Source: a virus
Lineage: Duplodnaviria; Heunggongvirae; Uroviricota; Caudoviricetes
IMG/VR virus record: IMGVR_UViG_2778261575_000007
Coordinates: 1 to 19,849 of that record
Direction: 5' to 3' (one strand)
DNA length: 19,849 nucleotides
In this document: positions 9,001 through 12,000 of the stretch, piece by piece
How the letters are laid out: the number at the start of each line of letters is the position of its first letter
Position numbering within the stretch: the first letter of the stretch is position 1
Program-made: the position numbers

Positions 9001-12000
9001 CATGAAGTTTTTGTTTGGGATTCTGCTGTACCCTTCTTTTATTGGTGTTATTCTTTCTGCGTACCTGAGTATTAAAGCACTAATAGCCAGTTAATTACCA
9101 GGGCAATAAGCAATAAAGAAATTTCTATAGAAATGAGCCATCAAAAGGAACGACGATAATACGGATAATATCGATGAGAAGTACACATGGAAAAGCTGAC
9201 CATCAACAGAAATTACGGTATGCCACAAAAATGGTACAGGAGACGCAACAGCAGGATAAAACCACATCGGCATATAAAGTGATGCCCGGTAATCAGAACG
9301 CGCAGCAGAAGCCCACAGGGGCGACACCGTGGCGGCATATGACCAAACGCCAGCGCAAAAACCGCAGGCGCGTTAACCGCCTCACTGAGTTGTGGCCTGA
9401 CTTATTCAGCCGGGAAGCACCGAAGCCGCTTAAGGTGGGGATATTCGACGACCTGATGCAGGATCTCGCCGTCAGGGGGCTGGCATTTGGGCCAGGGGCA
9501 TTACGTGCGACGCTGGCATCTTATGCGCAGTCTCCGCGCTATTACCGCGCCCTGGTTGCTGGTGGGGCGCGTTACGACCTGAAAGGCCAGCCGTGCGGCG
9601 AGGTGACACCACAGGAACAACAGGACGCAGAAACGCGGCTGATGGCGCTGAATGAGAAGCGCAAACGTCAGCGCCGGGCAGCAAAGGAGAAAACAGGCGC
9701 ATGATTCACGACAGCAAAGCGGAAGCACTGGAAGCGCGTGGTCTGTACCGGAGAGCGGCGGCGCGGTGGGCTGAGGTCATCATGCTGGCGAATGATGACA
9801 AGGCACGGGAACAGGCGGCAAAACGTCGCGCGGAATGTATCCACAAGGCAGCACGCCCACCAGCAAGGCAGGATAATTTCGGGGAGATGCGCGAAACCAT
9901 CAGCCGGGCACATGCCGGAATGGGATTACATCAGCCCAATGGTAAGGCATTCAGGAAATACCCTGGATCGAAAAATTGCAGTCAGTGACGGAGGCCGGGA
10001 TTTTTCCCGGCCCTATTGTGTTTCATTAATTGCAACATTTGTTGCTATCATTTCATTTTGTGCAATTGTTGTGGTTGTTATTATTCGGGAGAAAAATCAT
10101 GAAAGGTCACGGAGTAAAGCCAGTTTTACTTTCCCGGAGGCAGATCGAAGCCCTGCAACGCATCCAGGACGAAGAGCGTCAGAAATCTGTGCTTGGTGTG
10201 GCACCGTCGATTCATGTTATCGCCCGGCAACTGATGGATAAGGCACTTAAAGAGGTGAGACTGTGAAATTAAATATCAGAGTGGATAAACGCCAGCTATG
10301 GCAGAAAAAAGAGAACAGCGAGGCATTCAGGGCGTTGCTGGTGGAAAATCTTCAGCACCGGTTCAGTGGAGAGTTGCCTGATGCTCTAGGGAAGAAACTT
10401 GAATCCCTGACGGTGGAAATTGGCGATTATGGCTTTGTTGATGTTGAAAGCACGACTGCCAACACAGAAATCGTAAAACAGGTCGTCAATGATGTAATGA
10501 AAACCACGCTTAGCCAGCCATCCTGGCGCAACTGAATCAGTAAGGGGCGGTTATTGCCCCTTTCCTCCATACCCACAACGCATTCCCTTTCCGCATGAAA
10601 TTATTTTTTATCGTATACGCATGAGGTGAGCTACATGTTGATGAGTAAAGCCGAATACGCCAAATACAAAGGCGTAAGCCGCCAGACAGTTTACGACTGG
10701 ATCGAGAAAGGCGAAGTGATCATGTCTGGCAAAAAAATTGATGTGGAGGCGACAGAGCAGCGGAACAGCCCACCGGCACAAGGGAAAGACACCGTTTCTG
10801 AAATGTGGCCAGAAAGAACGCTGGAAATGACGTGGGGCGAGTTCTGGAAAGCAGTTAAGGCCAGAGACGGTAAAATTCCTTCGCCAGTAACGGACGATGA
10901 CATACAGCAGCGTGTGCTGTATGCAGCCGGGGAATTAGGCTGGGAAGTGCACTTTCTTGATGATGGTGCTATCTGCCTTGAGGATGATGAAGGGCAGCAT
11001 TACTTTGAAAAATACAATTTGCGAGGTAATGCCAGGCTGGCAATTCGTATGCTGCGTTGCGAACTCTGCTATGTTGCAGGTGATTATCCCGATGAACTGG
11101 AATCATGGAGTGAAACCGGGCTAAACGCCCTGGCTGAATGGGAAAAATCAGACCATCAATGACATCAAAAAGTGTCAAGTTGAGCAGCTTGCCAGGTTGA
11201 CACTTTACACTCTGAACGCGAAAAAGTGTCAACCTCGCTGTAAACCCCGCCGTTACTGGCTTTGCGCCAGATTTACCTCGTCAAAAAGCCGAAAAAATCG
11301 CGAAAAGTGTCAAGTTGCCATGCTCAGAAATGCTAAGGTTTGATAAGGTTTTTCGCGAAAAAGTGTCAAGTGTGTCAACCTGCGATATTAAGATTTATTA
11401 AGGTCTTAAGCCGGAAAGTGTCAACCAGCCCCTAAGATTTCCTAAGGCGTGATTGAACGTGCTGTAACCTTCTTGTCGCAATGTGGATGAATGACTATAG
11501 TGCTGGTAACTTTGACCGCAGAATCAGATTACTGAAGGAAGTGTGTGATGAGTTTTTTTAGTCTTTATGGGAAAGAACTATTTTCTTTTTTTATAGCGAT
11601 TTTAACATGGATACTGAATAACAGATTTAAAAGCAAGGCAAAGTTATCCTATGGTTATCAGCATGGATTTACTTTTCTTCTCAATGAACCCTTACGGAAT
11701 GCTAATGGTGAGGTAATATCTAATTCACAGTTGGTGTATACACGATCTATTATTCTTGTTAATGAAGGGCGAGAAAGTGCTACTAATATATCATTGGTTT
11801 TTAACTATAAGCCAATGCATATTAATTTTTGGCCTGTCCACCATTTTGAAGAAAATATTGAACAGGATGGTCGCTATATTATCAAGTTTGAAAACCTTGC
11901 ACCTAGTGAGTCTATTCAATGTGAAATATTATCAATAAATAGAGAAGTTCCAAGTATTCTATCGATAAGATCTAAAGAGTGTGTGGCTGAGCCAGTGAAT

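What the first reader, a model, noticed from the sequence alone, without database searches (positions are those of the whole stretch)
11167..11450. Second repeat array (GTGTCAA within CGAAAAAGTGTCAA, plus CTAAGRTTT) downstream of an HTH protein
Six direct and one inverted copy of GTGTCAA, several in a longer conserved context, are interleaved with a second short motif in about 280 bp of non-coding DNA. This sequence differs from the primase iterons, so a different protein is expected to bind it; the adjacent HTH protein at 10635-11162 is the obvious candidate. It could be a packaging site, a partition-like centromere, a second origin, or a regulatory array controlling the cargo genes.
Basis: seen in the sequence. 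Interest (0 to 1): 0.55.

Follow-up and report, generated by a model that had tools for sequence, protein, structure and literature searches.

The report
Satellite DNA-packaging recognition array (probable)
A phage-parasitic island in E. coli carries a conserved cluster of short DNA repeats next to a small DNA-binding protein; the pair most likely marks the island's DNA for packaging into a helper phage's capsids, and the protein family has not been described.

Summary
All seven GTGTCAA copies in the window lie in 11172-11424. Six are exact AAAGTGTCAA 10-mers (five direct, one inverted), directly after a 175-aa winged-HTH gene (10635-11162). The element is a classical Gram-negative PICI: int, alpA, D5-type primase with P4-like TGTTCACC iterons at 7950-8190, ProQ, PerC.

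In 70 related loci from about 12 enterobacterial genera, GTGT(C/A)AA occurs at 14.4/kb in the 450 bp after the gene and 0.08/kb elsewhere. The recognition helix is nearly invariant.

The same DNA-binding domain and motif occur in other satellites at the cosB position of a lambda-style cos. In one case the domain is fused to a full Nu1-type small terminase. In sister PICIs the same slot holds lambda cos plus Nu1 terS, or cosQ-cosN plus a GTGTAAA array.

Best reading (about 0.55): an Rpp/cosB-like packaging-specificity module, made of a terminase-redirecting wHTH protein and its recognition array. No cosN was found, so the cleavage mode is unknown.

Main rival (about 0.2): a second iteron origin. 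The array's centre holds a 26-bp G+C-rich core that also sits in P1/RepFIB oriR, a lambdoid O-gene ori and several primase-adjacent iteron arrays. That core is itself an unexplained and interesting finding.

The parts
10635..11162 (+). Gene for a 175-aa protein: an N-terminal winged HTH (residues ~1-45, excisionase / MerR / TerS-DBD fold), a disordered linker, and a small alpha/beta C-terminal domain (CTD1, ~60-170) with a conserved acidic/aromatic tail. It is the proposed binder of the array and the proposed adaptor to helper terminase.
11169..11232 (.). Proximal site cluster: three exact AAAGTGTCAA sites in +, -, + orientation (11169-11178, 11197-11206, 11223-11232), spaced 26-28 bp. The first starts 7 bp after the stop codon.
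   Evidence: The +/- pair immediately after the gene recurs in Rouxiella, Raoultella, Buttiauxella, Pantoea and the other genera examined. Motif columns are invariant in 33 unique E. coli-type arrays.
11238..11263 (+). G+C-rich core CTGTAAACCCCGCCGTTACTGGCTTT, an imperfect inverted repeat (TGTAA-N9-TTAC), lying between the proximal and distal site clusters. No known factor binds it. Possible roles are a host architectural-factor site or a strand-separation clamp.
   Evidence: It is conserved at the same place in the arrays of E. coli, Raoultella, Pantoea, Serratia and Erwinia relatives. The same 26-bp consensus occurs in P1/RepFIB oriR, a Yersinia lambdoid O-gene ori, and phages Dobby, Y2/Berlingot and Greed. 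It also lies next to primase-helicase genes in L256 and L260. A degenerate copy lies inside the cosB-position array of L302.
11264..11303 (+). Spacer with phased A-tracts (CAAAAAGCCGAAAAAATCGCGAAAA) leading into the distal units. It is a probable intrinsic bend.
   Evidence: Read directly from the sequence. Highly conserved in E. coli-type arrays.
11298..11450 (+). Distal cluster: three composite units of 42-58 bp (starts 55-56 bp apart). Each holds one (A)AAGTGTCAA site (11304, 11360 plus an extra GTGTCAA at 11372, and 11415) followed by a tandem pair of ~10-bp TAAGRTTT repeats (11333-11352, 11388-11410, 11432-11447). The conserved block ends here.
   Evidence: Repeat families D1-D5. The block GATGCTnAGAAATGCTAAGGTTTGATAAGG recurs in Raoultella, Pantoea, Erwinia and Serratia. 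In the Pseudocitrobacter/Lelliottia/Enterobacter lineage the TAAG pairs are replaced by TTGAG/GTTAG/GTTATG pairs while GTGTCAA stays constant. Homology among E. coli genomes stops at query 770-851, which is window 11369-11450.

Best explanation
The 11163-11450 array is the cis-acting packaging-recognition site of this phage-inducible chromosomal island (PICI). The adjacent 175-aa protein is its specificity factor.

Proposed mechanism:
1. After helper induction the island excises and replicates from its own pri/ori module (6131-8190).
2. The winged-HTH domain, which has the fold of small-terminase DNA-binding domains, binds the AAAGTGTCAA sites. Three sites lie on one side and four on the other side of a G+C-rich core, with A-tracts and possibly a host factor bending the DNA.
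3. The C-terminal domain engages the helper phage's terminase, so packaging initiates on island concatemers rather than on helper DNA.

The array therefore plays the part of cosB or pac R-sites, and the protein plays the part of Rpp or a satellite TerS.

Shown:
- Motif clustering, conservation and co-inheritance with the wHTH.
- Homology of the DNA-binding domain to domains that sit beside the same motif at a cosB position.
- Occupation of the same island slot by bona fide cos/terS modules in sister islands.

Inferred:
- Physical binding of the protein to the sites.
- Contact with terminase.
- Where and how the DNA is cut, since no cosN was found; headful (pac) initiation is therefore plausible.
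- The identity of the helper phage.
For: (1) In 70 loci carrying the same C-terminal domain, GTGT(C/A)AA density is 14.4/kb in the 450 bp after the gene and 0.08/kb elsewhere. These loci span E. coli, E. ruysiae, Citrobacter, Pantoea, Serratia, Rouxiella, Raoultella, Klebsiella, Buttiauxella, Erwinia, Lelliottia and Enterobacter.

(2) The N-terminal wHTH matches PHROG 57 'terminase small subunit'. Structurally it matches TerS DNA-binding domains, lambda TerS and RppC, but also Xis and Cox.

(3) The same DNA-binding domain type (G[VM][ST]RQxxYxW) sits beside GTGTCAA/GTGTAAA arrays in other satellites. Those arrays occupy the cosB position of a lambda-style cos: cosQ GGGTCC, cosN GCATTGCGCGCC (identical to the annotated cohesive end of Serratia phage BZS1), a homologous ~35-nt spacer, then the repeats.
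- In L086 the domain is fused to a full Nu1-type TerS. It matches phrog_57 over its whole length at 2.7e-23 and is 41% identical to BZS1 TerS.
- In BZS1 and phiNP themselves the recognition helix differs (VSRKTVTSW) and the repeats at that position are GGTAACA.

(4) Slot test. Among 43 PICIs with a PerC homolog, 39 carry this HTH plus array. The exceptions carry other packaging modules between PerC and the conserved 'MT(M/I)TEAEML' gene.
- L303 carries a lambda-type cos plus a Phage_Nu1 terS (1.3e-69); L304 holds a fragmented Nu1-like ORF.
- L302 carries cosQ-cosN plus a GTGTAAA array.

(5) In Klebsiella helper-embedded satellites the array directly precedes a DUF5681 gene. Phage homologs of that gene lie immediately upstream of terL.

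(6) The island already has a primase-proximal iteron ori, and no lambda, BZS1 or P2 cos is present anywhere in the window. A packaging signal is therefore otherwise unaccounted for.
Against: - No cosQ or cosN is recognisable in or next to the window's array, so a defining part of the Rpp/cos paradigm is missing.
- The C-terminal domain has no detectable similarity to Rpp, TerS or any annotated protein.
- The wHTH fold is equally that of excisionases and Cox.
- The array's centre holds a 26-bp G+C-rich core. Wherever its context is interpretable, that context is a replication origin: P1/RepFIB oriR, a lambdoid O gene, or downstream of primase-helicases.
- The array's architecture, with repeats flanking that core, matches those origins.
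- No phage in INPHARED carries the protein or the array, so no helper is identified.
Confidence: 0.55

Rival explanations
1. A second, iteron-type replication origin or replication-control locus. The wHTH protein would act like lambda O: it binds the AAAGTGTCAA iterons on both sides of a G+C-rich core, and its C-terminal domain recruits a helicase. The helicase could be the island's own D5-type enzyme, host DnaB, or a helper loader. The primase-proximal TGTTCACC array would then be the counterpart of P4 crr, which also lies directly downstream of the primase gene.
For: - The core at 11238-11263 matches the consensus CTGTAAGCCGCGCCGTTACTGGCTTT. That consensus lies between the GATC heptamers and the iterons of P1/RepFIB oriR, ~200 bp upstream of repA.
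- It also lies in the middle of the iterons inside gene O of Yersinia phage vB_YenM_29.18.
- It occurs directly downstream of a Toprim plus DUF5906/Pox_D5 helicase (L260) and of a PrimPol-helicase (L256), and next to the primase/helicase of phage Greed. In each case it is flanked by element-specific repeats.
- In P4, alpha is followed by crr, and the true ori lies 4.7 kb away.
Against: - About half of the family's lineages lack the core.
- A degenerate core also lies within a cosB-position array next to cosN in L302, so the core is not exclusive to origins.
- There are no TGTTCACC iterons, no DnaA box, no GATC and no marked AT-rich unwinding element in the array; the lowest G+C over 40 bp is 0.33.
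- The protein has no Rep, helicase or primase domain.
- The module is never found on plasmids: 0 of 190 places in E. coli and 1 weak N-terminal hit in 72,556 plasmids.
- The slot is held by cos/terS modules in sister islands.
Confidence: 0.2
2. A transcriptional operator or insulator array. The HTH protein would repress or activate transcription across the junction between the conserved island backbone and the accessory (cargo) genes, or autoregulate.
For: - The motif read on the opposite strand is TTGACAC, which contains the sigma-70 -35 hexamer TTGACA.
- The array lies between the HTH gene and the cargo.
- MerR-, Xis- and Cox-like wHTH proteins often act as regulators.
Against: - No promoter-like site lies within the array. 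The only one (11473-11501) is outside the conserved block, in the variable cargo part.
- Cargo differs between relatives, is sometimes on the opposite strand, sometimes almost absent, and sometimes lies between the gene and the array.
- The array lies downstream of its own gene, not upstream.
- Seven sites spread over 260 bp with a conserved core is excessive for an operator.
Confidence: 0.08
3. Recombination-directionality (excisionase-type) sites of the attachment region, or a partition centromere.
For: - In Klebsiella helper-embedded satellites the array lies a few hundred bp or less from the right-end junction, which was not mapped.
- Multi-copy direct and inverted repeats are typical of both kinds of site.
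Against: - The island has its own AlpA next to int (2287-2484).
- In E. coli the array is 0.7-4 kb from the right end and more than 10 kb from int.
- No partition NTPase gene is present, and the module is never plasmid-borne.
Confidence: 0.04

Closest known systems
Rpp proteins and the cos1/cosB site of E. coli PICI EcCICFT073 (Fillol-Salom et al. 2019, PMC6739421; Murialdo & Feiss 2022, PMC9026076)
   Same: - Both are PICI-encoded small proteins whose N-terminal winged HTH has the fold of the lambda TerS DNA-binding domain.
- Both are encoded at the distal end of the island backbone, next to a non-helper DNA recognition sequence and just before the accessory genes.
- The proposed logic is the same: changing which DNA the helper terminase selects.
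   Different: - There is no sequence or C-terminal-domain similarity to RppA/B/C.
- The recognition sequence is a 290-bp array of seven sites with a G+C-rich core, not a single proposed R3-like site.
- No cosQ or cosN is present in this island.
- No interaction with TerS has been shown.
Lambda Nu1 (TerS) with cosB R3-I1-R2-R1
   Same: - A winged-HTH protein faces multiple short repeats in both orientations, interrupted by a non-repeat element at the position where lambda has the IHF site I1.
- Relatives of the DNA-binding domain sit at a true cosB position: L086, L088, L079 and L302.
   Different: - The protein lacks the Nu1 oligomerisation and gpA-binding parts.
- The array lies downstream of the gene rather than between cosN and the gene.
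- No IHF consensus site and no cosN are present.
pac sites of headful phages (P1 pac with PacA hexamers flanking the cut region; SPP1 pacL-pacC-pacR) and SaPI TerS/pac. This comparison rests on my own knowledge and was not tested here.
   Same: Two clusters of small-terminase-type binding repeats flank a unique central segment. No fixed cohesive-end sequence is needed.
   Different: The binding protein here is not a complete small terminase. Cleavage has not been mapped, and the helper is unknown.
P1/RepFIB plasmid origin oriR core (G+C-rich stretch; Brendler et al. 1991, as cited in PMC5043065)
   Same: The 26-bp core at 11238-11263 is about 80% identical (21 of 26 positions, from the sequences) to the G+C-rich stretch that separates the GATC heptamers from the RepA iterons. 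In both cases it is bordered by initiator-type repeats.
   Different: The array has no DnaA box, no GATC heptamers and no Rep-family initiator. It is part of an integrated satellite, not a plasmid.
Satellite phage P4 ori/crr
   Same: The island's primase-helicase and its TGTTCACC iterons are P4-like. P4 also uses two separated cis regions.
   Different: P4 ori and crr both carry alpha-binding type-1 iterons. The array studied here carries none, and P4 has neither the GTGTMAA motif nor the G+C core.

Membership tests
Gram-negative PICI (the whole element) | int plus alpA at one end, unidirectional genes, a primase/helicase followed by an iteron ori, a 10-20 kb element, and accessory genes at the distal end | tested here: met
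   int 1-1215, AlpA 2287-2484, AntA/Bro 2562-3362, D5_N/DUF5906/Pox_D5 6131-7945, iterons 7950-8190, ProQ and PerC 9174-9988, cargo 11545-14853. Relatives are bounded by host genes.
Rpp / PICI cos redirection system | Island protein with an N-terminal winged HTH of the TerS-DBD fold | tested here: met
Rpp / PICI cos redirection system | Homology to RppA/B/C, including the C-terminal dimerisation/TerS-binding part | tested here: not met
Rpp / PICI cos redirection system | Helper-type cosQ and cosN adjacent to an island-specific cosB | tested here: not met
   No lambda, BZS1 or P2 cohesive-end sequence and no GGGTCC near the array. The feature is met in sister or related satellites L302, L088, L079 and L086.
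Rpp / PICI cos redirection system | Heterocomplex with helper TerS, block of helper packaging, and promotion of island packaging | not testable with these tools
   Requires two-hybrid or pull-down assays and transfer assays.
Small terminase subunit (Nu1 type) | DNA-binding domain plus oligomerisation and TerL-binding regions, with the gene next to terL | tested here: not met
   Only residues 2-45 match phrog_57. There is no Phage_Nu1 match and no terL in the island. By contrast, L086 (full-length phrog_57) and L303 (Phage_Nu1, 1.3e-69) do qualify.
Iteron-type replication origin | Multiple initiator-binding repeats | tested here: met
   Seven copies, six as an exact 10-mer. This feature is also expected of cosB or pac sites.
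Iteron-type replication origin | Adjacent AT-rich unwinding element and/or DnaA boxes | tested here: not met
   The lowest G+C in 40-bp windows is 0.33. There is no TTATCCACA and no GATC in 11163-11450.
Iteron-type replication origin | Cognate initiator of a Rep, O or helicase type encoded next to it | tested here: inconclusive
   The neighbouring protein is a wHTH plus an uncharacterised alpha/beta domain. It has no Rep, helicase or primase domain, but O-like adaptor initiators need none.
Iteron-type replication origin | G+C-rich core of the P1-oriR type between repeats | tested here: met
   11238-11263 matches the consensus found in P1/RepFIB oriR, the Yersinia O-gene ori, L256 and L260.
Partition centromere | Cognate ParA/ParM/TubZ NTPase and centromere-binding protein; plasmid or phage-plasmid lifestyle | tested here: not met
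   No NTPase gene in the island. 190 of 190 E. coli places are chromosomal. Absent from PLSDB.

The most novel reading that the evidence does not exclude
Two linked novelties remain open.

(a) The wHTH-CTD1 proteins may be an undescribed family of terminase-redirecting factors. They would let PICIs exploit helpers without carrying any helper cosN, using a multi-site pac-like array. The same portable DNA-binding domain and site pair is swapped among at least three C-terminal effector domains, including a true TerS.

(b) The 26-bp G+C-rich core (consensus CTGTAAGCCGCGCCGTTACTGGCTTT) may be a sequence-specific site for an unidentified conserved host factor, or a specific strand-separation clamp. 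It would be used in multi-repeat nucleoprotein machines of gamma-proteobacterial phages, satellites and P1/RepFIB plasmids, at origins and, in these satellites, at packaging sites. This would contrast with the textbook view of the P1 G+C stretch as a sequence-tolerant spacer.
Probability: 0.3. Interest if true: 0.8.

Novelty: new variant of a known kind. Interest (0 to 1): 0.62.

Why it matters
PICIs spread virulence and anti-phage defence genes, and how they capture a helper's packaging machinery decides which phages can move them. Only the Rpp/cos route is described for E. coli PICIs.

This module is present in about 3% of complete E. coli genomes and across Enterobacterales. All its proteins are annotated 'hypothetical', and it carries no helper cos. 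It would therefore represent a second route.

Practical consequences if the reading holds:
- It would define a testable DNA-protein pair for engineering packaging specificity.
- It would give a marker, the array, for the boundary of the cargo hotspot.

Separately, the conserved G+C-rich core links P1-type plasmid origins, lambdoid and other phage origins, and these satellite arrays. That makes the long-unclear role of G+C-rich origin flanks directly testable.

Tried and rejected
- Lambda cosN, BZS1 cosN, P2 cos and cosQ searches in the window found nothing beyond chance.
- Sequence and profile searches of the PDB for Rpp or Nu1 similarity found nothing.
- Foldseek against BFVD returned only generic HTH hits. 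The afdb50 library was unavailable.
- Rfam found no RNA family in the window or in the array.
- blastn of the whole array against phages found nothing relevant. tblastn of the protein against phages and plasmids found nothing or one weak hit.
- The scan for GCCRTTACTGGNTTTG in IMG/VR was too short a pattern.
- The literature search by sequence string returned only unrelated primer coincidences. Brendler et al. 1991 is not held.
- The Stx-phage hit to the core is partial, has no flanking repeats and was dismissed.
- The 19-copy GTGTCAA/GTGTAAA array in environmental podophage contigs (L032 and relatives) lies next to terS/terL/portal. It has no HTH homolog, and the phage is unrelated to enterobacteria. 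It was noted but not used as evidence.
- The promoter and terminator scan found no signals inside the array.
- The idea that the central element is a cosN with lambda-like flanks (GTAACG|...|GCGAGG on the reverse strand) was considered. It was dropped as unconvincing once the element turned out to be the origin-type core.
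Full report
**What is in the sequence**

The window holds a classical Gram-negative phage-inducible chromosomal island (PICI).
- Integrase lies at 1-1215, AlpA at 2287-2484 and an AntA/Bro protein at 2562-3362.
- A D5_N/DUF5906/Pox_D5 primase-helicase lies at 6131-7945.
- It is followed at 7950-8190 by P4-type (C)TGTTCACC iterons.
- ProQ/FinO lies at 9174-9704 and PerC at 9701-9988.
- A 175-aa HTH protein lies at 10635-11162, followed by the array, then accessory genes.
- The remnant of a second integrase lies at 15801-16139.

- All seven GTGTCAA copies of the window lie in 11172-11424, six direct and one inverted.
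- Six of them are exact AAAGTGTCAA 10-mers.
- Two are exact 16-mers, CGCGAAAAAGTGTCAA.
- About 0.04 copies would be expected in that interval by chance.

The second motif, CTAAGRTTT, is not enriched on its own. It forms three tandem ~10-bp pairs that alternate with the distal GTGTCAA sites, giving composite units of 42-58 bp whose starts are 55-56 bp apart.

**Anatomy**

Reading left to right, the array has these parts:
- Three sites in +, -, + orientation (11169-11232).
- A 26-bp G+C-rich core, CTGTAAACCCCGCCGTTACTGGCTTT (11238-11263).
- A spacer with phased A-tracts.
- Three composite units (11298-11450).

There is no promoter-like or terminator-like signal inside the array. The only promoter-like site (11473-11501) lies beyond the conserved block. 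The array contains no GATC, no DnaA box and no strongly AT-rich tract.

**The protein**

The N-terminal ~45 residues form a winged HTH. This domain matches HTH_17 weakly, and PHROG 57 'terminase small subunit' at 1.7e-6.

Other findings on the family:
- There is no sequence similarity to RppC or Nu1.
- The family is confined to Enterobacterales, and nearly all members are annotated only as 'hypothetical' or generic DNA-binding proteins.
- It is absent from 50,697 phage records and from plasmids.
- CTD1 has only 19 cluster representatives among 1.84 billion proteins.
- The first 42 residues, including the recognition helix VSRQTVYDW, are nearly invariant. CTD1 drifts to 36-45% identity.

**The array and the protein belong together**

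- In 167 complete E. coli genomes the gene and the array are conserved as one block. The block ends at window 11369-11450, and the sequence beyond it is unrelated.
- In 70 loci carrying CTD1, from about a dozen genera, GTGT(C/A)AA occurs at 14.4/kb in the 450 bp after the gene and 0.08/kb elsewhere.
- In 33 distinct E. coli-type arrays every motif column is invariant, while the spacers vary.
- The TAAG pairs change with lineage (TTGAG, GTTAG, GTTATG), whereas GTGTCAA does not. This matches the invariant recognition helix.
- It suggests that the second motif is read by something else. This is an inference.

**Evidence for a packaging role**

A scan of IMG/VR for the inverted site pair found more distant relatives of the DNA-binding domain (LMSVSQYAKHAGMSRQALYSW..., KYAEHAGVTRQTIYDW...). 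Each lies next to GTGTCAA/GTGTAAA clusters.

In these elements (L086, L088, L079, L117, L110) the repeats lie between a lambda-style cos and the gene. The order is:
- cosQ GGGTCC;
- cosN GCATTGCGCGCC, identical to the annotated 12-nt cohesive end of Serratia phage BZS1;
- a homologous ~35-nt spacer;
- the repeats.

In BZS1 and Citrobacter phage phiNP the repeats at that position are GGTAACA, and the TerS recognition helix is a different one.

In L086 the domain is fused to a complete Nu1-type small terminase. It matches phrog_57 over its full length at 2.7e-23 and is 41% identical to BZS1 TerS, with a conserved C-terminal part. In L088 and L079 it is fused to a third, unrelated C-terminal domain. 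L088 is a helper-embedded satellite: it has a DUF927 primase and OLD-type cargo, and a truncated major capsid E gene lies just beyond the cargo, consistent with insertion into that gene. This kind of element is described in 10.1101/2022.07.18.500453.

GTGTMAA is therefore an R-type (cosB) element for this DNA-binding domain in at least one real TerS.

**The slot test**

Among 43 IMG/VR PICIs with a PerC homolog, 39 carry this HTH plus array, and none of them has a lambda cosN. The exceptions carry other modules between PerC and the conserved 'MT(M/I)TEAEML...' gene. That gene also follows the array in L001.
- L303 carries a lambda-type cos (GGGTCCTTTCCGG...GGGCGGCAGACG...ATTTTCACTATTTATGAAAATTTTTCCGG) plus a Phage_Nu1 terS (1.3e-69). 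L304 holds a fragmented Nu1-like ORF in the same place.
- L302 carries cosQ, a BZS1-like cosN and a six-copy GTGTAAA/TTTACAC array with a small wHTH nearby.

In Klebsiella helper-embedded satellites the array directly precedes a DUF5681 gene. Phage homologs of that gene lie immediately upstream of terL.

The island already has a primase-proximal ori, and no known cos is present. The array is therefore the obvious candidate for the missing packaging signal.

**Evidence for an origin role**

The G+C-rich core is not satellite-specific. Its consensus is CTGTAA-n-CC-s-CG-nn-GTTACTGG-s-TTT. It recurs in the following places, always inside an element-specific repeat array:
- P1/RepFIB oriR, between the GATC heptamers and the iterons, ~200 bp upstream of repA. 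There are 374 plasmid places in E. coli, plus P1-like phages.
- The centre of the iterons inside gene O of a lambdoid Yersinia phage.
- Directly downstream of a Toprim plus D5-type helicase (L260, two copies) and of a PrimPol-helicase (L256).
- Beside the primase/helicase of Seuratvirus Greed.
- Pseudomonas P2-like phage Dobby, among about 13 GGTAATT repeats, and Erwinia Chaseviridae.

A review notes that the role of such G+C-rich flanks in origins 'has remained unclear' (PMC5043065). From my own memory, which I could not check because the paper is not held, Brendler et al. 1991 concluded that the P1 stretch is a spacer that tolerates sequence change.

Four points weaken the origin reading of the window's array:
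- About half of the CTD1 lineages lack the core.
- A degenerate copy (GCAAGCCGCGCCATCTCTGG) sits inside the cosB-position array of L302, next to cosN, where lambda has its IHF site I1.
- The array lacks the other hallmarks of an origin.
- The module is never plasmid-borne.

One reading fits both contexts. The core may be a site for a host architectural factor, or a strand-separation clamp, that serves multi-repeat nucleoprotein complexes in general. This is an inference.

**Verdict**

The most likely reading (about 0.55) is an Rpp/cosB-like packaging-specificity module. It uses a new protein family and a multi-site, core-containing array, and it has no cosN. Headful or otherwise unconventional initiation is therefore plausible.

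The other readings rank as follows:
- A second origin or replication-control locus is about 0.2.
- A regulatory array is about 0.08.
- Excisionase sites or a partition centromere are about 0.04.

The module is not a member of the Rpp family, because C-terminal-domain homology and an adjacent cosN were tested and not met. It probably works like that family.

Binding, the terminase contact, the cut site and the helper are all inferred and can be tested directly with the experiments listed under decisive next steps.

Noticed in passing
window 11238-11263; also L252-L264: A 26-bp G+C-rich element (consensus CTGTAAGCCGCGCCGTTACTGGCTTT) recurs in the middle of element-specific repeat arrays. The contexts are P1/RepFIB oriR, the O-gene ori of a Yersinia lambdoid phage, Pseudomonas phage Dobby, Erwinia Y2/Berlingot, E. 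coli Seuratviruses and several metagenomic primase-adjacent arrays. It looks like a sequence-specific origin-core element with no assigned factor.
   Followed up: partly
window 7950-8190: The primase-proximal array has about 10 copies of (C)TGTTCACC/GGTGAACA, the same octamer as the annotated P4 type-1 ori/crr repeats. Its position directly after the primase gene matches P4 crr rather than P4 ori.
   Followed up: partly
L032 10050-11960 (also L051, L063, L072, L105): Environmental podophage contigs carry about 19 GTGTCAA copies plus many GTGTAAA copies, interleaved with a palindromic TTAAGGCAG...CTGCCTTAA element. Their TerL is 45% identical to that of Pseudomonas phage Rollin. The array lies just upstream of the terS-position gene, terL and portal. 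No homolog of the HTH was found.
   Followed up: partly
L133 1-330 and L132 2920-3260 (Serratia phage BZS1, Citrobacter phage phiNP): The presumed cosB repeat GGTAACA occurs three times between cosN and terS. It occurs five or more further times inside the terS coding region, where it encodes a GNK/GNR-rich linker. TerS binding sites may therefore continue into the terS gene itself.
   Followed up: no
L020-L023 (Klebsiella): Relatives of the island appear embedded among the late genes of an E217-like myovirus prophage. They carry their own copies of baseplate/tail genes (Dit_like, Pam3_gp18, Apex) and a DUF5681 terS-like gene after the array. In two loci that gene is truncated after about 35 codons.
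   Followed up: partly
L017 6648-10300; L006 and L010: In some Serratia and Erwinia relatives 1.5-3.7 kb separate the HTH gene from the array. In L017 (Serratia aquatilis) the insert is an ABC-3C defence system (SMEK_N, MC6, DUF2326). Cargo can therefore insert on either side of the array.
   Followed up: partly
L024 7714-8143: A degraded E. coli island (IS1 insertion, no integrase) has lost the HTH gene and the proximal half of the array. It keeps the distal half, directly after the 90-aa gene.
   Followed up: no
window 11333-11447; P4 9176-9205 (L266): The tandem ~10-bp TAAGRTTT pairs resemble, in layout, the three tandem 10-mers TTAAAG(T/C)(C/A)A(C/T) annotated as P4 'ori type 2 repeats'. 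From memory, those resemble P2 Cox boxes. The pairs change with lineage, so they may be read by a second, element- or helper-encoded protein.
   Followed up: no
window 15801-16139 and 16584-19849: An N-terminal fragment of a second arm-binding integrase follows the cargo. This suggests a tandem or decayed second island at the same site. Next come a MarR regulator and an autotransporter that runs off the window.
   Followed up: no
window 3355-4893: A 512-aa protein has only a C-terminal ~50-residue match to phage 'transcriptional repressor' PHROGs. It lies in the Bro zone next to AntA and may be the island's immunity or derepression sensor.
   Followed up: no
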